From positions 496,001 to 530,450 of the forward strand of contig JBEWZL010000238.1 of assembly GCA_045837725.1 (NCBI GenBank): a stretch of DNA of 34,450 nucleotides, given 5' to 3'. Position numbers and translations under genes: made by a program. Each line of letters starts with the position of its first letter. Within the stretch, counting starts at the first letter, position 1. This document shows, piece after piece, positions 6,682 through 34,450 of the stretch. The notes under the pieces were generated by a model that worked only from the letters and a program-made list of their open reading frames with translations, did no database searches and was not told the DNA's origin. This DNA comes from Vermamoeba vermiformis. Lineage: Eukaryota.

Positions 6682-7898
6682 ATGGGCCACGCTTGCACGA
6701 AAGCCGAGAAAGATCAGAAGCCGACAGTTACTATCGCTGCCCCGAAGAAGGATCCCAAGATCAACACGCCACGAGAGGTGGTTCGGGACTACTCCAACAT
6801 GACGATTCGTAACAAATACCATTTCCGTCTTGGTCTTGTTGGAACTAGCCACAGTGGCAAGAGCACAATCGGAAAGCAAATGAGAATCGGCCACGGGGCT
6901 AATTTATCAGAAGGGACCAACGAAGATGCGAGAAAGATTATAGTGACCAATTTAGTAACGACCTTCAAAGAGCTCGTGCACCAAGCAAAGCGAATGAACA
7001 TCGAAATTGAGAATGAAACAATTGGAGAGAAAATTTCTCAGTTAGATCCAGCGAAAACCAGTATGACCGCCGATCTTGCCGACCATATCAAGACTCTTTG
7101 GGCAGATGAAGGTACTAAAAATACTTTAAAAAATAGTGCTCTAATTTAGTACAGGTATCCAGCAAGTGTTCGCTCGACGTAACGAGTTTGAAATCCCACC
7201 GAACACCGAGTACGGGGTTGATATGGTGGACAAGCTTGCAGATCCTAAAACATTGTTTAACTACGAAGACGTACATATCTACCTTCGAGGGCGCGAGAAG
7301 ACAATGCAGGTTTCCGAAACCGAGTTCAAAGTGGGAATTTTCAGTTGGCATCTTGTTGAATCTGGTCCAGAACACGAGAATTCAAAAATGTGGCCAACCG
7401 TATTTAAGGGAGTTATTGCTATGGTTTTTGTAGCTGCTCTTGACGATTGGGACATCATCAATTCCGAAGATCCAAAAATGCGCACAAGGTACGATCTAAA
7501 CACTCAACATCGAATCGTCTATTGGTTACCACGAAAAAATTATTGCGTCTGTTATTAACTATTATTTTAGAATGCAAATTAGCTTGGATCTGTTCGAAGG
7601 AATGGTCAATCACGATTTGTTTAAAGAACGCCCGTGGGTCTTGCTACTAAATAAGCGTGACTTGTTTAAAGAAAAGTTACAAGAGCACGATTTGGCTAAG
7701 ACGTTCCCCGATTACAAAGGCGGGGACGATTTTGATGCTGCAGTAGATTTCATCAAGGGCCAGTATTTGGCACGCATTCACAGAGAGCCGAAAGACCTCG
7801 ATTCTCGCGTGTTGTGTGCACTCGACACTGAAGAGACGAACAGCGTGTTTGAAGAGGCTTTAGAATACGTATTCAAGAAGTGCAGCGACCTTATGTAA
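6682..7898 (+). CDS. Divergent heterotrimeric G-protein alpha subunit (3 exons)
   Basis: N-terminus MGHAC (Gly2 myristoylation, Cys5 palmitoylation candidates). P-loop GTSHSGKSTIGKQMRI, helical domain IKTLWADEGIQQVFARRNEF, switch I LRGREKT, G4 LLLNKRDLF, G5 CALDT. Confidence 0.9.
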
Positions 7899-11443: not shown

Positions 11444-16531
<5,088 letters not shown>

Positions 16532-20333: not shown

Positions 20334-23300
20334 TTAATTCAAGTTGTTGAGGGCGTTGGTCCATGCAGGCAACGTAACTTGAGTGGTAATCCACACCGAT
20401 TGGTTTTGAGGAGTTTTCAAGTATTGAGCAGATGAGGGAACGGAGCCTCCATTATAGCCCTTGCAATAGGGGCAAATCTGTCGTCGTGTTAATATGCTGT
20501 TGCGTGCTTTTAATGTCTACTTACGTTGATTCCTTTGGACACTTCGAAACATTTTGACGATGTGCAGTAGGTTTTCTCGCAATCAAAGCAAAACTGAAAT
20601 TGGACGGTTAATATAAATCTCTTTTGTCTTTTGGTGCTTACCTTCCAGTTGCCTCCGGACGTGTTGCAGGTCTTGCACGTCTTGTTCCACTCAACGCACA
20701 ACTTCGCAAAGTGATTTTGTTTCCAGAGAGTAAGTCGCTGCTTTTCAATGTCTCCCTTGAGTTTGGCTTGCATAACAGGGACACACGAAGCAATGTTGGA
20801 GACAATCACTGCAATCTGTATGGGCACAGAGCCGCTGACATCAGCGTTTACGACGAGATCCCTATGCATCATTAATAATTCATTTCGTTACGGGTAACGA
20901 GGAGGCACTTACTTGGTCTCAAAGACAGTCCAAGATTGAATCGAGCTGTCAACTTGGATGGATTTAAATTGTGCCCACAACAAAGAGCCGTTCCAACGCC
21001 AAGTCAGCATAGGCAAATTTTGGTTGCCTTCATTGAGTCTCAAGCTGATGGTGCCCTCTTCGAGTATGGCTTTGTACGGTCCAGTCCATCCTTTGAGCAA
21101 GCCACTCTCGCAAGTCAATTGACCAGGCGAGTACTTCCAAATCATGCCAGCAGCACCGATCGAGCCACCAGTGAAGCCATCAACTTCGGCTTGGAATTGC
21201 AACTGTAGCTCGAATGGTTAGTTACGTTCATATACTGAACTAGCTACACTTACAGCAGCAGCGTTGCGTTTGTTGGCCTCTTCTTGTTTTTTCATCTCGA
21301 TCTCAGCCATGCGGCGCTCCTCTTCCTGTTTGATGGCGGTCAACTTGTCGGCAATTTTCTTTTCCAACTCGGAAACTTCTTTGGCCGCTGGGTACATCTG
21401 CTTCAATACATTGATCCACGAATTGCTGTGCTTCATCCAATCGGAGTCATCGGAGTGCTTGACCCAGTAATTCACAAACTCTTGGCACTGCGCAATTTCG
21501 CCTTCCATCACTGCCTTCTCCAATGACTTCACGCTGTTCAAACACTCGACAGCTTCAGTACCGTCATCAGGTAAGATCTGAAATTTCGTTAGCGTTGGTT
21601 GTAACTTTTACGATACAACTTACCTTTTGTGCTTGTTTGGCGAAGTCTTCAGCAACACGCAAAAGCTTTTGTACGGTGAGGTACCCTTCGTAAGGGGCTA
21701 TGGCATCAACGTGCACTGTAACAGACATGAGCTCGTGCATTTTTAATGAGCTAATCAACTTACCAAATTTCAAAACATCGAAGGCCACCACTCGACGCGC
21801 CACCTCCCAAGTTGTTTCGCGATTGCCCGGCATTAAGTTCTGCATGTAATCAAGCAACACCATTGCAGACTTCAAGAACAAGTACGCTGTGGAGCTTTTT
21901 TGGATGTATTGGCCCAACACGCCATACTGTGCGTCCCAATCTTGCAAGAGTTGTCGAGCGGCAACAACGCCGTCTTTCACTTCGTTAATGTGAGGACAAT
22001 TAGCATCGGCCTTGACGAGCTCGCCAAGCAGTTGTCTGCCTTCCAACTTGTCCAAGGACAGACGCAGGTTCGTCATGGCTTTTTGGAATTGATCCCAGGG
22101 GTTGGGCATCTCGCCACGATTGAATTGACCCACACCAACCTTGCGGTCAATGTCTTCAAACTTCTGTTGGACTGTAATTGAACGATTAGCGCACGTCGGA
22201 TTGGATTTCTAATGCTTCACTTACTACCAAGCAACTCGGTGTTGATGCTTGCGATGTGCTCGTTGATGTTCTTCAACGGTTTTTGCCAGCTCGATGGAGT
22301 TTTGGACGTGACGTTGTAAGTAGACATGAACTCTTCATCAACGGGAACTTTGCCAACGACTTCCAAGTTCAGTTGATCCACGCGAGATATTAAAGCGTTC
22401 ATTGTGTGGTCAATGAGGAAGGTCTTTTTCAAGGGGGCAACCACACTGTTGAGCTCTTTCAGTGTCGCTAGAACCATTCCCGGATTGGCTCGGTTCGATT
22501 CAATTTGTTGCAAGTCCTTCTCGATCTGGGCTTGCAATCGTTGTGCTTCTTGTTTTTGAAACTGATTCAATTGAGGCTTGATAATGCCGAGCAAATTGTC
22601 AACCGGTGCCAAAGCCTGTTTGACGACATCGAAGTGGCCATACTGAACTCGCACCGGGTGCACCACGCTCAAAAGCTTTTGCAGCACCAACGTAGCCGAA
22701 TCCGTATCACTCGCCTATGAGTCGTGGTTAATTATATAGCGTCAATCTTAGGACAATCCTGCTTTAAACTTACTTGGTTCACCTTCTCGACCAAGTTTGC
22801 AATTTGAGCTGCGATCCTTTTGGCACTTTCAGCGGCACTCAAAGGTGAAATCTCGCGCTCAATGGATTTTAGCAGCGAGTTAACACGCGTCAGGACACCA
22901 ATGGCTTTGGCTTCGTTTGCGTACTTTCGCAGGGGCACCACCACTGATACTACGCGTTCTTGAAGCTTGGCTACACGAGCGAGGTCTTTACGTTGAATAG
23001 CATCTTCAAGTGCACTAGAGTAGAGTTGCTTAGAATTAAAACGAAGGAATGATTAGGTGAACTTACGCCAAGGGCAATAGAAGCACGGCGGATATCTTTT
23101 CGATCTCTTCCGCTGCGATGATGTTGCCAAGGGTGTCTTCAACACGTTGCAACAGTTGCTTGGATTGATTAAGCCATTTCTTGGCCTCGGAATTGGCCTC
23201 GTAACGCTTTAGTTGCACGAGCTGCTCTTCGATTTTAGGCACGTAGATCTGCACTTGCGATGCGTTCTTTTCGTTCAAGTAACGTTCAACAAGTTGCAAT

Positions 23301-27127: not shown

Positions 27128-30100
27128 ATGATGAAGGTTTGCCTTGTTTTGGCGTTCGTTACGTACTTCTTGCTGGGATGTATTAGCGCCACTTCCTGCG
27201 ATTTAAAGCATTCACAATCGCTCTCGTATCCTTCTTATGGCATTAAGATCGTCCACATTAAATCTGCATTCTCTTCGCAGGTAACAGGATCGCACATTTC
27301 AGAATAAACGACACATCCGGAATAAAACAAATCAATTTCGCTTTCTAAAAACTTGCCCACCTTTTACATTTACTAAACAATATTTATAGGATGCCATTGT
27401 AGTTAAACAAACAGATTCGCAAGATATTACCGTCGGTGTCAATGTGTTCACTGACGGCTCGTTGGATGACACCCCTGTGCAATTAACTGGCACTCAGAAC
27501 GGAACTCTGCTGCTTGTCGAAGCTAAAGTTAACCTTATTACTCCTCCTACCGCGCCCTCTTCGACTGCAAACGTCAGCGGTACCGACAAACTTCAAGCGT
27601 TCACCTCCACTCTTGTTCTAGGACTATTAGTGCAGCTATTCTCCAATCAACGGTACGTAACGTGCTTATTCTTTTCGCACTTTAATAACCTCCGTCGCCA
27701 GATTCGCGATTTTGATCGTTTCTATTTTTGGACTTGTGTCGCTTTCAATGGAAAACTGTTCTTCGCAAGCACTCTTCACATTGACGGTCCCTGTTGGCGT
27801 GCAATCAGTGTGCTTGAACGATCAATGCTTCACGAACTCGCCCACAGCTAATTTGGGTGTCGCGGCGCACTTCATTTCGCCCAACAACCGCGAGATGGCC
27901 ATGCTTTCTGACGCTTTCGGTGTTGTACGTCGCGACTTGGACTGGGGCTCGTATGTATTGTCGGAAATTACGCGGTGAGGGACTAAATTGTTAACGCACG
28001 AGCAGAGTTGAATACAGCGCACCTCAGAGTTACGACTTCTCGAAGTACACCGCCCTTTCAAACACTTTGCTATCTTTCAACATAACGCCGTACTGGATCT
28101 GGGATTACCGAAACAGTTTTTACGACGGCGGTGTTTCTCCGGTTAGTGATACTGGTAAGCAACGCGATAGGGGATATTACTTTGGTGTCTCTCTGACACG
28201 TGCTGTAGGTATTGCTGGATTCGTTAATTACACAATACGATCGCTCGGGTTACTGAACGGAACCGGTGCTGTGTGGGAGATGTACAACGAGCCCAACGGT
28301 GGATTCTGGACTCCAAAGGCAAACGTTACGCAGTTTGTCAACTTGGCAAGGGCAGTTGGTATCGCTGTCAAAGAAAATTATCCGAAAGAGTATCACATTG
28401 GTCCGGCTGTTTCAGGCATGGATTGGACGTTTCTTGAAGCTTGCTTTGCAAACGGTTTGTTGCAGTACTGGGACGCGGTGTCTGTGCATCCTTACCGCAA
28501 TGCCATTCCCGAGACCACGGTCAATGACTACTTTGCATTGGCACTGATGATCGAGCGCTACAAGCCTGCTAGCAAGCCGTTCATTCCAATCATCTCTGGT
28601 GAATGGGGTTACACAACTACAACTGTTACGCCGCACCAACAAGCGACGTATTTGCCCCGCATGTTCTTGGCAAATATGGCCATGGATGTAGTAATGTCTA
28701 TTTGGTAAGCTAGGCAAAAACCTCGTCGCTAATATGGGTGCTAATTGATATTTGTTGGTAGGTACGACTGGCGCGATGATGGTACCGATCCCAACAACAA
28801 TGAGCATAACTTTGGTACAGTGTACAACGCTTACTTGTCTAGCGGTGATTATCCATTCACTCCAAAGGCAACTTACTACGCCGCTCAAACGTTGAAGAAT
28901 CTGACAACTGGTTTGCGATTCAACAAGCGCATCCACACGGACTCGGCAACTGTTTGGATCGTGATGTTGTCCAACAACGATAATAACGTCGTTCTCGCAA
29001 TTTGGTCGACTACCAACACTACGGAAACAGTTTCGTTGCCGGTTAGCCCTGGATCATTCCGTGTCACAAATTACGTTGGTAACATGACCAACGACGTTAC
29101 TTTGACTAGCGGCCAATCTCTTATGATCGAAGCAACGGAAGAGGTCCAATACGTCGTGCCCTTGACGAGCAATCCGTACTTGAAGGTTATTGCTTCCGTA
29201 ACTAGACCACCGCTCATAATCACGGAAAACCTTGTTGACTTTGTTATGTTCTTCACCAATCCGCTCAACGAAGATGTGACCTTAGACTTCTACGAACAAA
29301 AAGGCGTTACCGTTGCTCCTGGACAAACAGTGGCATTGTGGCATCATGTTGACGTATACTTGGACGTCCCTGCGTTCGATCTGCCAATTTTTGTCAACTT
29401 CTCTACATTTGGACCATTGCGAATGCAGTCACATGTCGCACCAGTATTTCCAATAGTGCCCATTGTTTATCCAACTACAGTTAATGGTTCGGTGCCAGTA
29501 TCCTTCTTAAGTTCCTACGAATTGTAAGAGCTACTCTATGTTATTGTTCTAACTGTTTCCCACAGGTATGCTCACGTTAATGTTGTTCTAAATGGTCAAT
29601 CGACTTCATTTGATGTTTCAACTGTGTCGAGAGCCTCACCAGTCCTGTTGGTAGATGGTCAATTGCATAAAAACCAAACATCCACAGCTGCCCTTGCTAT
29701 ATCAAACGGAGCTACAATCTACACAAAGTATGGCTGCGGAAAGAGTCTAAAACTCGTATAATAATTTCTATTATTATAGAGGCACTCCTTTGATAGTATC
29801 ACAGTACTTTGATTTCTCAACGGTCAACAGTGCATTGTTACAACAAACTTTTGTCGCATGGATCGGGGGTGATACAGCTGTCTCGGCAAGCTTCAAAATT
29901 GCATTAGAGAAACCAACCATTATGCCTATGGGTTTTGACTCATATGGTGTTCTCCACCTCAATAGTACCTCTGCTAACGGCTATCGCTACTATGTAGTGG
30001 ATGCCAAGGTGGACTTGCTTATTGCTGGTACTCCAACCAGGTTTGGCCAATGGGTGTATGGCGATGGATCTGGAGTATCAGGAGGTATTAGAGTTGTTGA

Positions 30101-30377
30101 TAGAACTGGTGAGGTAAGTTAAAGTCTTCATGCAAACCTTTGCTAACGTTTGCACAAGGTATTTCAGTTTCAAACCAAGATAAATTGGTCTGGTTGGAAA
30201 TATGTTGTCTATTCATTGGACAATATCAATGACCATTGGGGAGGAAATAATGATAGAATAGCTGATTACCCTCTAAGCTGGCTGTCCTTATTTGTGTATG
30301 GAAACCCTGGAGGCAACTACACACAGTACCAGGGAAATCTGTACATTTCAACTTTAGTTGCTTACTCATTTGCTTAA
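27128..30377 (+). CDS. Secreted/membrane-anchored clan GH-A glycoside hydrolase (GH39/GH5-like) with C-terminal beta-sandwich domain
   Basis: Signal peptide MMKVCLVLAFVTYFLLGCISA. Catalytic domain: VRRDLDWGSVE, acid/base WEMYNEPN, DAVSVHPYR, nucleophile IISGEWGY, SIWYDWRDDG...EHNFG. C-terminal WVYGDGSG...WSGWKYV...HWGG. Confidence 0.88.
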
Positions 30378-30501
30378 TTGTTTTCAATTAGTGATTATAA
30401 TAAAAATGAGGGGCACCTCTCACTGAAAATTCTACGTCTTGCCTACACTACGGAAAAATAATTTTTATTTATTTACTAACACCGAAATTATTATTCGGCG
30501 A

Positions 30502-30816
30502 TTAACCAAGCTTGAAATTATACACCCCAGATGCTATGTAAAATAGATAGTCCAATTGGCGATCCTCTTCTTGCCAAGGCGTGCGAAGGCTGATCCACAG
30601 GTTCTTTAATTGTGCGAAGGTGTTCTCCATTCGTCCGTGAGAATGGTAAATTGCTTTATTATAGTCTTCTTGATCATCAGTAAGTTTTTTAATAATCCTT
30701 TCATTTAGCTCGTTGAAGGTGGGACGACCAACGTTTGGATTTTGGTGCGGTGTGTAAAACTTACACTCTCGCAAATTCTTCCTGCCCCATGAAAAGTGCA
30801 AATTGCCGATAATTAT
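30502..30816 (-). pseudogene. 5'-truncated DDE transposase fragment, PIF/Harbinger/IS5-like (DDE_Tnp_4-type)
   Basis: IIGNLHF...FYTP...LTDDQEDYNKAIYHSHGRMENTFAQLKNLWISL...IASGVYNF follows the HARBI1-type C-terminal pattern (xxgD..y...tP...lt..e..yN..l...R..vE..Fg.LK..w..L). The second catalytic Asp appears as Asn, and no N-terminal half is recognisable. Confidence 0.75.
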
Positions 30817-30889
30817 ACTATATAGGAGGCTACTACAATTTAGGGTTATGCGTTCTACAGGCTGAGAACACCCTTGCCAGATAAGACTA

Positions 30890-31322
30890 GGGCGTAGTCC
30901 TCAAAACTACACCCTTGCAAACTGGAACGGGGGCGTAGTCCTCAAAACTACGCCCTTGCAAACTGGAACGGGGGTGTAGTCCTAAAAACTACGCCCTTGC
31001 AAACTGGAACAGGGGTGTAGTCCTCAAAACTACGCCCTTGCGAACCAGAACAGGGGTGTAGTCCTCAAAACTACTCCCTTGCAAACTGGAACGGGGGCGT
31101 AGTCCTCAAAACTACGCCCTTGCAAACTGGAACAGGGGTGTAGTCCTAAAAACTACGCCCTTACGAACCAGAACAGGGGCGTAGTCCTCGAAACTACACC
31201 CTCACAAGCCAGAAGGGGGGCGTAGTCCTCAAAACTACGCCTTTGCGAAGCAGAACAGGGGCGTAGTCCTTGAAACTACACCCTCACAAGCCAGAACAGG
31301 GTGTAGTCCTCAAAACTACACT
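30890..31322. repeat. Tandem array, 11 copies of a 41-bp unit with an internal hairpin (GGGCGTAGT-N7-ACTACGCCC)
   Basis: GTAGTCCT core at 30894, 30935, 30976, 31017, 31058, 31099, 31140, 31181, 31222, 31263 and 31303 (period 41, last 40). Confidence 0.97.
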
Positions 31323-31345
31323 CCCTGGGGAGCGTATCTTATTTA

Positions 31346-31372
31346 TCATGCTAATTTGCATGCTAATTTGCA
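31346..31372. repeat. Short tandem 12-bp repeat ATGCTAATTTGC x2 containing two ATTTGCAT octamers
   Basis: Sequence reads catgctaatttgcatgctaatttgcatac. Confidence 0.6.
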
Positions 31373-32317
31373 TACTATTTATCGTGATTTTTTTGGGAAG
31401 CCTAACCAAACACCTGTAAACGCACCAGGGTTTTGTTTGTGCTTACTCTGCGATGCCTGCGTCAGTAACGGCAATGGCTGCACCGGAATAAACAAAACAA
31501 TCATTACGTCAAAGCAGATGCGTAGAAAAGAAGCAGGCAAGGTGAGAACAGGAGAGGGTACGAACTCGGCTTGACAGAGAGGACTAGCAAAGGTGTAATG
31601 ACACTGTAAAATGAAAAAAAATAAATTAACGGGTATTGTTGTCTCATTGTTTTAGTTTGTATGATCTGAAGCATTTTTGGCATTACAAATTTCCTTGTTA
31701 CTCAGCACGTGACAGTCGACCAGGGCTTTCTTATTGCCGACGCGCTAGGCTACGTTCACTAACTCGGTTGGATAAGTGCAGCAACAAGGTGCCATTAAAG
31801 CATGTTGTGCACGAAATTAACCAGGGATTTGAGTACCGGATCGAATCAGGGTTTTGAGTAGCAGATCGAATCCGCTTGCTAAATATTCTTTAACAGCATA
31901 TTGTGTCCCGCGACTAACGTCTAAGATAATTAGACTTTGACTCAATGGAGGCAGTTCCAGATTCACCTCGGATCAACATGGTAGCAACGCCATTATAACA
32001 TGACAAGATAAATTATCCATCACCGAACATTAATTAGCAAGATGCGGAAACGTGGGCTTTAAAAAATAATTGGATCAAGTGGGAAACTGGATGCACAAAT
32101 AATTAGTATCGTGTAAATTGCCGATACTGTTGTATCTCTAGACCGGATGATAAATAAAAAAAACACGTAAAATCTAAATTAGTACTGACGAGACGTCAAT
32201 GATCACGTGCTGTTGTTTATTTTTATACGTCCGTAAAAAATTTATTTCAATCTCCCTAACCCAACATAAACACGACGCCACACGTCGTATTTATTATTAA
32301 TTACACGAGTACTGCCC

Positions 32318-32550
32318 AAAGCTCTACTCGTGTAAACCGAAGATTCAGCGCTTCCCAAAGACGTCGCTGTAATCTAAAAATCCGATCAAATCCAAAAGAT
32401 TTGCTTAATCGCAGATATTATATCTAAAGTATAAGATTAAAGCTCTACTCGTGCAACGCAAAGGTTTCAGCGCTTCCCAAAGACGTCGCTGTAATCTAAA
32501 AATCCGGGCAAATCCAAAAGATTTGCTTTAATCGCATTAATATTATATCT
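32318..32550. repeat. Imperfect direct duplication (~110 bp units, period 121) containing hairpins
   Basis: AAAGCTCTACTCGTG...TTCAGCGCTTCCCAAAGACGTCGCTGTAATCTAAAAATCCG..CAAATCCAAAAGATTTGCTT..ATCGCA..ATATTATATCT occurs at 32318-32425 and 32439-32550. Confidence 0.92.
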
Positions 32551-32650
32551 ATAATATAATATTGAAATTATTACGTACGCTCCACTGGCCTACGTGAATT
32601 AATTTGGCTGTCATTTTCTCGATTCAGATTTGATCGACGGAAATTTACAA

Positions 32651-34450
32651 ATGGTACGAATTTATTTGATTAAATAAATGATAATACACGTATTAATTTA
32701 TTACCGTTATTTTTCAGGATCAGCCGCTTCGTGTCAAAGTAGCAAGCTACATCCAGTTTTTAATGTTCGCGTGCAACCGAACACCAGCACCAAACATCGA
32801 TTCCTACGTGTCGAACGTCTGCAAGATGATTGGGCAGTATATCAGCTCGTTCAATCGGCGTGAAGACTTTATCTTCTTCTTCTGCGTGTTCTGGTTTCAC
32901 CAGATGTTGCCAGAACACGAAGACGGCAAGACGTACTTTCCGGCATGGTACAAGTCGTACCGCGATAAAATTACAGCCGCACTTGGAATCGACATGGGCT
33001 CTCCGGCATGGAAAGAATTCGCCAACTTCTTTCACGGGTTTTACTCGATGTTCACGTGTGCCTTGAACATCGCCCAGTCAACCGTCAACAAGATTATCGT
33101 GCACCGGCCAGGCACCAACTATACTCAGGCTCTGCACACTGAGTACTACAAAATATGGATTGCACTGCGTTATCATTATACTTACTGGCGTTCTGAGACC
33201 GAGCTGCGGTCGCTGCTTGGCTCCGTAGACGTTTCTTTGCTTCAATGTGATTACGACCAACCATTTTTTACAAAGTTCACATCATTCACGGTAGCACCAC
33301 TTCATTTGCCTTCAATAGCACCGCACAGCACCGTTAGCGAGACCCCGCAACAGTACCAAAATACGCCGATGGGCTTCGTTTCTGGTTGCACAGGCTTGGG
33401 CTATGCAGCGTTTCATCGTGCCGACTTTCTCAACACGAGCGCGCAAGCAATCTTTGTTGGGGCGAAGAGAAAGCTTGCCCAGACAGAAGAGACGACCCCG
33501 CAGCCCAAAAAACCACGCTTAGACGTTCCTAACCCGGTGCAAGAAGATGATGAGAATTCACTCGTTATTTTAGAACCAGAACCACCAAGTCCAAGTCCAA
33601 GACCCAATTCTCCAGTGGAGCTGGTAAGATCGGCGTGTAAAAGGTTGAAGGAGTAACTAATTTGTTTCCTTGCAGGACTCTCCTCAAATTCGCGTGTCAT
33701 ATTCTTCGTCATCGTCTCCGTCGTCGCCAGCGTCATCATCATTTATATCCGTAGCCGAATCTGAAGGAATTTCTTTCTTGCCGGATGACTTTCAAGCAAA
33801 GTCTTCAACACTACAGGTTACGCACGACGTGTTTACCTCACTGAAGAAAAATCCAAAGGCTCTTTCCCGGTATGAAAGGGTCAAATTAACGGGTTTTTCT
33901 TGCTCCTTGGCCGATCTCAACATCTTCGAATCTGCTCCTTGTTGGACTTTAGTGCTTGAAGATATGACGCTTGCTGAGCAAACTGAATGCAAATCCATTA
34001 AACGGTATGAATTATTTATTACTTCAATATTAGGGTCTAATCTTGTCGCAGGTTGCCGCAAAAGTGTTTGGTCGTAACACCCGATCTTGACACAAATCTC
34101 GTCCAACCTCTGTTAGCTGCCTGCCCGGACTTGGGAGCGATCCAGTTGCTAGGGATTAAGAGTTCTACTACACGGCTTGGTCTGGCGCTGTATAACATGG
34201 CCCGCCTTCAATTTCTTCATCTAGATACGGATGGCCACGTCACCAACTTTTACAATGCTTTCAAAGCGAAGACCTGCACTCAAGTATTGCAGGCAATATT
34301 CAAACGCGCTCCGAACCTCATTGGCTTGTTCATTCCACTGCCAGACGAATCTGTCAGATTGGATTTGTCGTCCGTCAAATTCCCTAAGTCCCTGCATCTG
34401 TTGGGTCTCAAAAGTCACGGGAGTAATTCAACAGTCGATATTCACGCTGT
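32651..34450 (+). CDS. Orphan protein: aromatic-rich helical N-domain, bipartite NLS, Pro/Ser linker, LRR-like C-terminal region; runs off window
   Basis: Inferred exons 32651-32653 (ATG only), 32718-33623, 33676-34004 and 34052->34450 stay in frame with canonical GT-AG sites. Motifs: KRKLAQTEETTPQPKKPR; LLAACPDLGAIQL, LQFLHLD, APNLIGLFI, FPKSLHLLGL. Confidence 0.75.

What the first reader, a model, noticed from the sequence alone, without database searches (positions are those of the whole stretch)
30890..31322. 41-bp hairpin array whose variation is almost purely CpG deamination: footprint of 5mC/RIP-like repeat silencing
Seen: nearly all differences among the 11 units fall at seven positions, and they alternate as CG/TG/CA: ggCGtag/ggTGtag; cctCGaaa/cctCAaaa/cctTGaaa; ctaCGccc/ctaCAccc; cctTGc/cctCAc; gCGaa/gCAaa; acTGga/acCAga; aaCGgg/aaCAgg. 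Inferred ancestral unit: GGGGCGTAGTCCTCGAAACTACGCCCTCGCGAACCGGAACG (41 bp, 7 CpG). Some sites (acTGga vs acCAga) no longer retain CG in any copy. The surrounding genes are CpG-rich. Established: 5mCpG deaminates to TpG/CpA. Inference: this protist has repeat-targeted CpG methylation or hypermutation.
Basis: partly seen in the sequence, partly recalled or inferred. Interest (0 to 1): 0.8.

Follow-up and report, generated by a model that had tools for sequence, protein, structure and literature searches.

The report
CpG-decayed hairpin minisatellite in an amoeba
A 41-base repeat array in the genome of a Vermamoeba-like amoeba has mutated mostly at CpG sites, the classic scar of cytosine methylation on repeated DNA; this hints at methylation in a little-studied amoeba but does not prove it.

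Summary
Window 30890-31322 is a 41-bp tandem array of 10 full units plus a truncated 11th. Each unit has a 9-bp-stem hairpin. The consensus has seven CG/TG/CA dinucleotides (14 positions). 10 of those 14 positions vary by transition, against 2 of the other 27 (p about 4e-5). Across 70 dinucleotide instances there are 19 CG, 17 TG, 29 CA, 1 TA and 4 others.

The window as a whole is not CpG-depleted (o/e 1.15), while the array is (0.64). A neighbouring 122-bp duplication and an adjacent transposase relic are not depleted. Public DNA contigs show the unit is a dispersed multi-copy family. Some other copies carry G or C at sites that are CA or TG here.

The host is Vermamoeba vermiformis or a close relative (95% identity to a named transcriptome protein). 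The array abuts a truncated DDE_Tnp_4 transposase.

The best reading is ordinary 5-methylcytosine deamination on methylated repeats. 5mC and DNMT genes could not be tested, because no genome is held. RIP-type sequence contexts are not met. I found no report of cytosine methylation in Vermamoeba.

This is a known kind of footprint in a new lineage, of modest interest.

The parts
30890..31322 (.). 41-bp tandem array: 10 full units plus a truncated 11th. Each unit has the 9-bp stem GGGCGTAGT/ACTACGCCC, the 7-nt loop CCTCAAA and a 16-nt linker. CpG o/e is 0.64.
30812..30889. Leader shared with other genomic copies of the family. Its last ~41 bp look by eye like a degenerate unit (no alignment was run). 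This is where multi-copy similarity begins.
   Evidence: contigs of X1, X3 and X4 have loose ends at 30812/30813, and X1 depth in bin 30740-30843 is 1605 against 250-312 in the two bins to its left
30505..30831 (-). Relic of a DDE_Tnp_4 (IS5 / PIF-Harbinger superfamily) transposase. Only the C-terminal ~100 residues remain. Homology breaks off where the array element begins. CpG o/e is 0.89, so it is not depleted.
   Evidence: 20.2 bits, below the 24.8 cut-off; 157 hits at E<=1e-3, 15 at E<=1e-10; 8 of 8 full-length hits carry DDE_Tnp_4 above cut-off; 13 of 13 align only residues ~195-305 to 30831-30478
29566..30377 (+). Three terminal exon-like ORFs of the upstream gene form a CpG desert (o/e 0.54, 0.45, 0.12), with a 288-bp CpG-free gap at 30147-30435. 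It lies next to the array, but a link to the array is not shown.
   Evidence: the exons are real coding sequence (P0391 aligns to both)
32318..32563 (.). Internal control: a 122-bp x 2 tandem duplication 1 kb to the right. It keeps its CpGs. By my reading of the alignment, 6 CpG sites are shared and 1 is private to each copy. CpG o/e is 1.88.

Best explanation
The array is one copy of a dispersed, non-coding 41-bp hairpin minisatellite family. It sits in transposon debris between two genes of a Vermamoeba-like amoeba. Its units differ mainly because CpG cytosines changed to T on one strand or the other, giving TpG or CpA. The most likely cause is CpG methylation aimed at multi-copy repeats, followed by spontaneous deamination of 5-methylcytosine, in a genome that is otherwise unmethylated and CpG-replete.

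Shown: the CpG-specific, two-strand, local decay, and the multi-copy nature of the family.
Inferred: that 5mC is the cause, and that copy number is what attracts it.

The hairpin itself looks like an inherited palindrome, not a selected structure.
For: 1. Site enrichment. 10 of 14 CG/TG/CA positions vary by transition, against 2 of 27 others (p = 4.6e-5). 7 of 200,000 base-stratified permutations reached this. Within each base class the counts are A 3/3 vs 1/9, G 3/4 vs 0/6, T 2/2 vs 0/5 and C 2/5 vs 1/7.
2. Both deamination products occur at the same sites. The tally is 19 CG, 17 TG, 29 CA, 1 TA and 4 others of 70. Against a modelled CG ancestor there are 50 transitions per 140 position-instances, compared with 4 changes per 270 at other positions.
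3. Locality. Window CpG o/e is 1.15. The array's 0.64 is lower than 97% of 341 sliding windows.
4. Controls nearby keep their CpGs: the 122-bp duplication and the single-copy transposase relic (0.89).
5. Multi-copy family. In DNA run X1, 437 contigs were laid and 207 fit two places. Depth over the array bins is 4,730-26,057, against 222-841 for the single contigs laid on the flanks. Runs X3 and X4 show the same shape, and loose ends lead into different flanks.
6. Other copies hold G or C where this array has A or T: 31052 A>G in 39 X1 contigs, 31067 A>G in 11, and 31005 T>C in 2 of 2 X3 contigs.
7. All 5' contexts decayed. The PMC3318451 discussion (passages) attributes that pattern to passive 5mC deamination.
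8. Repressive 5mC on young TEs without gene-body methylation is reported for another amoebozoan, Acanthamoeba (PMC12344493, abstract and passages).
Against: - No methylation data and no DNMT search were possible.
- The 10 units share ancestry, so unit-instance counts overstate the number of events. Only the per-position test is free of this problem.
- The transposase relic touching the array is not CpG-depleted (0.89). A broad methylated domain is therefore not evident.
- The deepest CpG hole in the window is not the array. It is unique coding sequence at 29.4-30.4 kb, which the repeat-targeting idea does not explain.
- Among differences listed, CpG-type transitions are 7 of 15 inside the array and 6 of 25 outside it. 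These numbers are small, significance was not tested, and 22 further rows were not shown. CpG-type change is therefore not exclusive to the array.
- TCG sites kept CG least (1 of 20, against 18 of 50 for other contexts; my split of the tallies). This is a weak hint of context bias.
Confidence: 0.6

Rival explanations
1. Active, homology-dependent hypermutation of repeats (RIP-like). An enzyme deaminates cytosines in duplicated DNA, here with a CpG preference.
For: The decay is seen in the multi-copy family but not in the adjacent single-copy relic or the two-copy 122-bp duplication. TCG sites retained CG in 1 of 20 instances, against 18 of 50 for other contexts (my split). This recalls the TpCpG target of Pucciniomycotina (PMC3318451, abstract).
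Against: There is no CpA-to-TpA signature (TA in 1 of 70; 29 CA persist). All seven 5' contexts decayed, so there is no strict trinucleotide target. 19 of 70 CpGs survive. RIP is known only in fungi (from recall and the PMC3318451 introduction passages).
Confidence: 0.08
2. No methylation is involved. The variants are old subfamily differences carried in by unequal crossing-over or conversion from other copies. The non-CpG positions are held constant by selection or homogenisation, so only a few free positions vary.
For: Units 8 and 10 form a subfamily, 3 differences apart and 7-11 from the rest. 16 of 45 site pairs show all four gametes, which is compatible with recombination among units. The same variants occur in other genomic copies.
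Against: It does not explain why the free positions are exactly the CG/TG/CA dinucleotides. It does not explain why TG and CA alternate at one site, which otherwise needs two simultaneous changes. The stem pair 4:22 is not protected: of 8 units changed there, 1 is compensated and folding weakens to -4.2 to -6.8 kcal/mol.
Confidence: 0.15
3. A CpG-specific mutation bias without 5mC, for example a lesion or repair bias in heterochromatic or hairpin-forming DNA.
For: CpG-type changes also make up 6 of 25 listed differences in the unique flanks. The unique-sequence CpG desert at 29.4-30.4 kb shows CpG loss outside repeats.
Against: Window-wide CpG o/e is 1.15, which argues against a general CpG bias. 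The loop cytosines C10 and C11 never vary, so single-strand exposure alone is not the cause. I know of no established mechanism of this kind (recall).
Confidence: 0.13
4. Assembly artefact: the array is a chimera of reads from different family copies, so the 'unit variation' mixes different loci.
For: No X1 short-read contig spans the array. The listed pieces stop at 30841 and restart at 31272.
Against: An independent run (X3) has a 187-nt contig piece identical to 31193-31379, covering units 8-11 and the unique right flank (table 8). A chimera would still show family-level CpG decay.
Confidence: 0.04

Closest known systems
CpG decay of methylated repeats and transposons (repressive 5mC on young TEs, as reported for Acanthamoeba castellanii, Cyanophora paradoxa and Naegleria gruberi; PMC12344493, abstract and passages)
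   Same: Both TpG and CpA products occur at former CpGs. The decay is confined to multi-copy DNA in a genome whose bulk is not CpG-depleted. The host is an amoebozoan.
   Different: No methylome or DNMT evidence exists here. The target is a 41-bp hairpin minisatellite, not a coding TE. The lineage (Vermamoeba, Tubulinea) has no cytosine-methylation report in the library searched: searches gave co-mentions only, judged from titles and abstract starts, plus one passage.
RIP, and the RIP-like TpCpG hypermutation of Pucciniomycotina fungi (PMC3318451, abstract and passages)
   Same: C-to-T transitions are concentrated in repeated DNA. There is a weak excess of loss at TCG sites.
   Different: There is no strict trinucleotide target and no CpA-to-TpA signature. 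The host is not a fungus.
Minisatellites carried by non-autonomous transposons (MITE- or Helitron-type elements with internal tandem or palindromic repeats; named from recall, not tested)
   Same: The family is dispersed and multi-copy, with units that form hairpins and different flanks at different loci. This copy sits at the broken end of a transposase gene.
   Different: No terminal inverted repeats or target-site duplication were identified. The inverted-repeat scan found only the unit hairpins. The neighbouring transposase relic is single-copy and is not part of the family.

Membership tests
5mC-driven CpG decay of methylated repeats | Transitions enriched at CpG-derived dinucleotides relative to other sites, including other C/G sites | tested here: met
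   10/14 vs 2/27, p = 4.6e-5. For consensus C/G positions only, 5/9 vs 1/13, p = 0.023. 7 of 200,000 base-stratified permutations reached the observed value.
5mC-driven CpG decay of methylated repeats | Both strand products (TpG and CpA) at the same ancestral site | tested here: met
   Sites 13-14, 27-28 and 34-35 carry both TG and CA. Totals are 17 TG, 29 CA and 19 CG of 70.
5mC-driven CpG decay of methylated repeats | Local CpG deficit against the genomic background | tested here: met
   The array's o/e is 0.64, against a window value of 1.15 and a sliding mean of 1.17 (sd 0.28). It is lower than 97% of 341 windows.
5mC-driven CpG decay of methylated repeats | CpG-bearing relatives of the decayed sites elsewhere in the genome | tested here: inconclusive
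   One search lists A>G at position 40 (39 contigs), A>G at position 14 (11 contigs) and T>C at position 34 (2 of 2 X3 contigs, 1 X1 contig). The contigs themselves could not be read, and 22 rows were not shown.
5mC-driven CpG decay of methylated repeats | 5-methylcytosine present at the locus | not testable with these tools
   No bisulfite, EM-seq or nanopore signal data were available.
5mC-driven CpG decay of methylated repeats | A DNMT1/3/5-type methyltransferase encoded by the genome | not testable with these tools
   No genome is held.
RIP (Neurospora type) | CpA-to-TpA preference with TpA enrichment | tested here: not met
   TA in 1 of 70 instances, and 29 CA persist.
RIP-like hypermutation (Pucciniomycotina type) | A strict TpCpG trinucleotide target | tested here: not met
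   The 5' bases of the seven decayed CpGs are G, T, A, T, G, C, A. Only a trend exists: TCG kept CG in 1/20, others in 18/50.
Structured RNA or selected hairpin element | Stem pairs kept by compensatory change, or a match to a curated RNA family | tested here: not met
   For pair 4:22, 8 of 11 units are changed and 1 is compensated. There were 0 Rfam matches and 0 tRNAs.
DDE_Tnp_4 (IS5 / PIF-Harbinger) transposase, for the neighbouring relic | A DDE_Tnp_4 catalytic domain | tested here: inconclusive
   The relic alone scores 20.2 bits, below the 24.8 cut-off, and covers profile positions 99-158 of 158. 8 of 8 full-length homologues score above the cut-off.
DDE_Tnp_4 (IS5 / PIF-Harbinger) transposase, for the neighbouring relic | A complete transposase gene | tested here: not met
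   13 of 13 homologues align only their last ~100 residues. No N-terminal part was found in the window.
Transposon-borne minisatellite (MITE-like) | Dispersed copies with different flanks | tested here: met
   depth, contigs that fit two places, and loose ends.
Transposon-borne minisatellite (MITE-like) | Terminal inverted repeats and a target-site duplication | tested here: inconclusive
   The 25 inverted pairs shown (of 88 found) were all unit-to-unit or within the 122-bp repeat. The element's right edge is uncertain.

The most novel reading that the evidence does not exclude
A tubulinid amoeba has a homology- or copy-number-sensing defence that actively mutates CpG cytosines in repeated DNA. 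This would be a RIP-like system outside fungi. It hits a multi-copy hairpin minisatellite while sparing the single-copy transposase relic that touches it and a two-copy duplication 1 kb away.
Probability: 0.07. Interest if true: 0.75.

Novelty: new member of a known kind. Interest (0 to 1): 0.3.

Why it matters
Vermamoeba is a widespread water amoeba and a host of Legionella and several giant viruses (from titles and abstracts listed). I found no report of cytosine methylation for it in the searchable library. In Acanthamoeba, Naegleria, Cyanophora and Amoebidium, 5mC marks young transposons and endogenised viral DNA (PMC12344493 abstract; PMC11244446, start of abstract in the listing).

A sequence footprint of repeat-targeted CpG methylation would extend that pattern to Tubulinea. 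It also gives two concrete places to look, the 41-bp family and the 29.4-30.4 kb CpG desert. The footprint itself is textbook biology, so the gain is incremental.

Tried and rejected
- Whole-genome search and file: no genome is held. A DNMT search and a census of family copies were therefore impossible.
- Metagenome scan with the unit pattern, N at the CpG sites: 4 loci, each a lone match with no array, so chance.
- Viral-contig scan with the hairpin core: 60 loci, each with a single match. I did not read these loci and treat them as chance.
- Prokaryote genome scan: 0 matches.
- tRNA and Rfam: 0 matches.
- RNA: no RNA holder was listed. The one RNA run laid (X13) put 0 reads on the whole 3.1 kb, which the tool marks as no test.
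- Taxon from ABC-domain homologues: the named hits were only 49-65% identical and spread over animals, fungi, amoebae and plants, so they were uninformative. A named cluster member later resolved the taxon.
- Earlier scan findings: none for this genome; one unrelated word match.
- Terminal inverted repeats around the array: none among the 25 pairs shown.
- Joints in X1 that skip 30832-31484 and 30833-32278 could mean a haplotype or paralogue without the array. Their shorter side is only 21 letters, which the tool warns against, so I do not rely on them.
- Readings considered and dropped:
  - APOBEC-type editing, because there is no TC/CC context bias.
  - Single-strand loop deamination, because loop C10 and C11 are invariant.
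  - GC-biased conversion, because A>G occurs at 3 of 3 CpA adenines but at 1 of 9 other adenines.

Full report
WHAT IS THERE. Tandem Repeats Finder reports one array at 30890-31319: period 41, 10.5 copies, 86% matches and no indels. Cut in 41-bp steps it gives ten full units. An eleventh unit has lost one G and keeps only the hairpin part. Each unit has a 9-bp stem (GGGCGTAGT / ACTACGCCC), a 7-nt loop and a 16-nt linker. An intact unit folds as single-stranded DNA at -9.8 kcal/mol (z -4.06; 0 of 200 shuffles as good). Four of the five changed units folded reach only -4.2 to -5.1; unit 3, with a T-G pair in the stem, reaches -6.8. The hairpin core occurs 11 times in the 34-kb window, all in the array; 0 of 100 shuffles reached 11.

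IS THE VARIATION CpG-TYPE? The majority consensus has seven CG, TG or CA dinucleotides, which is 14 of 41 positions.
- Ten of those 14 positions vary by transition, against 2 of the other 27. Fisher/hypergeometric p = 4.6e-5.
- When variable labels are shuffled within each base class, 7 of 200,000 permutations reach the observed value. Within classes the counts are A 3/3 vs 1/9, G 3/4 vs 0/6, T 2/2 vs 0/5 and C 2/5 vs 1/7.
- Over the 70 dinucleotide instances the states are 19 CG, 17 TG, 29 CA, 1 TA and 4 others. Three sites carry both TG and CA, and two sites (27-28, 34-35) have no CG left.
- Against a modelled all-CG ancestor there are 50 transitions per 140 position-instances, compared with 4 changes per 270 elsewhere. 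Units share ancestry, so only the per-position test is independent of history.

Positions 25 and 32 vary by non-CpG transitions, and positions 13, 22, 33 and 39 carry transversions.

IS IT LOCAL? The window as a whole is CpG-replete (o/e 1.15). In 341 sliding windows of 430 bp the mean is 1.17 (sd 0.28), and the array's 0.64 is lower than 97% of them. Two internal controls keep their CpGs:
- The 122-bp x 2 duplication at 32318-32563 has 6 shared CpG sites and 1 private to each copy, by my reading of the alignment. Its o/e is 1.88.
- The transposase relic that touches the array has o/e 0.89.

Against a simple picture, the deepest CpG hole in the window is not the array. It is 29400-30435, the last three exon-like ORFs of the upstream gene, with o/e 0.54, 0.45 and 0.12. 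All 30 other segments tested outside 29.5-31.4 kb are at 0.91 or above. The hole includes a 288-bp CpG-free gap; the next longest gap in the window is 122 bp. These exons are real coding sequence, because a 212-aa public protein aligns to both at 65% and 55% identity. In run X1 they are covered by a single contig with no extra copies laid over them. I cannot say whether one methylated domain accounts for both patches, since the relic between them is not depleted.

THE UNIT IS A DISPERSED FAMILY. I laid contigs of public runs on 29700-32800.
- DNA run X1 gave 437 laid contigs, of which 207 fit two places.
- Summed depth is 4,730-26,057 over the five array bins. The single contigs laid on the flanks have depths of 222-841.
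- Runs X3 and X4 show the same peak.
- Loose ends show other flanks, and similarity to other copies starts at 30812/30813.
- A 187-nt X3 contig piece is identical to 31193-31379, which independently confirms the last units and the right flank.
- Other copies carry G at position 40 of the unit (31052 A>G, 39 X1 contigs), G at position 14 (31067 A>G, 11 contigs), C at position 34 (31005 T>C, 2 of 2 X3 contigs) and CA for TG at 34-35 (6 contigs).
- Of the 15 differences listed inside the array, 7 are CpG-type transitions. Of the 25 listed outside, 6 are. A further 22 rows were not shown, so this comparison is weak.
- Scans of metagenome, viral and prokaryote collections found no arrays.

CONTEXT. 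The window is nuclear eukaryotic DNA. It has split ORFs and G-alpha, ABC-transporter and adenosine-deaminase domains, and no tRNA or Rfam match.

The ABC domain is 95% identical (247 of 260 residues) to a EukProt protein named Vermamoeba vermiformis. The host is therefore that amoeba or a close relative.

The array lies in a 2.3-kb spacer between two + strand genes. On the minus strand at 30831-30505 is the C-terminal third of a DDE_Tnp_4 transposase.
- The relic alone scores below the Pfam cut-off.
- It has 157 homologues at E<=1e-3.
- 8 of 8 full-length homologues scanned carry the domain.
- 13 of 13 homologues align only their last ~100 residues.
- Homology breaks at 30813-30831, exactly where the multi-copy element starts. 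The array element therefore sits at the broken end of an old, single-copy transposon.

MECHANISM. The pattern is specific to CpG, gives both strand products, is local, and affects multi-copy DNA. This is what spontaneous deamination of 5-methylcytosine produces where methylation is aimed at repeats.

I put this reading at 0.6. The steps from decay to 5mC, and from 5mC to copy-number targeting, are inferred.

The hairpin does not look selected. At stem pair 4:22, eight of eleven units are changed and only one is compensated.

A RIP-like process (0.08) fails the CpA-to-TpA test and the strict TpCpG test. The paper that defines the fungal TpCpG pattern treats plain CpG excess as passive 5mC deamination (PMC3318451, passages). 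Other rivals are inherited subfamily variation without methylation (0.15), an unknown CpG bias without 5mC (0.13) and an assembly chimera (0.04).

COMPARISON AND NOVELTY. Repressive 5mC on young transposons, without gene-body methylation, is reported for the amoebozoan Acanthamoeba and for Naegleria and Cyanophora (PMC12344493, abstract and passages).

Three searches for Vermamoeba with methylation, DNMT or 5-methylcytosine returned only co-mentions in papers on other subjects. One of those passages, which I read, concerns adenine methyltransferases.

This is therefore a known kind of footprint in a lineage where it has not been described: a new member of a known kind, of modest interest (0.3).

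LIMITS. No genome, methylome or DNMT search was available. The contigs of other copies could not be read, only summarised. Paper supplements were closed.

Noticed in passing
window 29400-30435: This is the strongest CpG desert in the window, and it lies in unique coding sequence. Three terminal exon-like ORFs have CpG o/e 0.54, 0.45 and 0.12, with TpG and CpA o/e 1.2-1.6. There is a 288-bp CpG-free gap; the next longest in the window is 122 bp. It is separated from the array by a stretch that is not depleted.
   Followed up: partly
window 30505-30831 (- strand): A truncated DDE_Tnp_4 (IS5 / PIF-Harbinger superfamily) transposase relic. The frame is open for 132 codons, but only the C-terminal ~100 residues have homologues. 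It breaks off exactly at the left edge of the multi-copy array element.
   Followed up: yes
window 30832-31484 and 30833-32278: X1 contigs join across these spans (depth 182 and 146, shorter side only 21 letters). The same minor-depth sequence shows 31-bp and 124-bp skips inside the relic and a cluster of differences at 30449-30547. This may be a second haplotype or a paralogue without the array.
   Followed up: no
window 32318-32563: A 122-bp x 2 tandem duplication (88% matches) is unusually CpG-rich (o/e 1.88) and keeps most of its CpGs. This is the opposite of the 41-bp array.
   Followed up: partly
window 31347-31377 and 7567-7586: A 12-bp unit (CATGCTAATTTG) is repeated 2.6 times directly right of the array. 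It has a 20-nt, 90% complementary match 24 kb away.
   Followed up: no
window 20400-22700 (- strand ORFs): ORFs with no Pfam match show CpA o/e 1.43-1.58 and CpG o/e 0.91-0.97. These are the lowest CpG values outside the 29.5-31.4 kb region.
   Followed up: no
window 15737-16531: An ABCC-type transporter exon is 95% identical to a Vermamoeba vermiformis transcriptome protein. This names the likely host genus. Contigs identical or nearly identical to the array's flanks occur in a water metagenome run (X4).
   Followed up: yes
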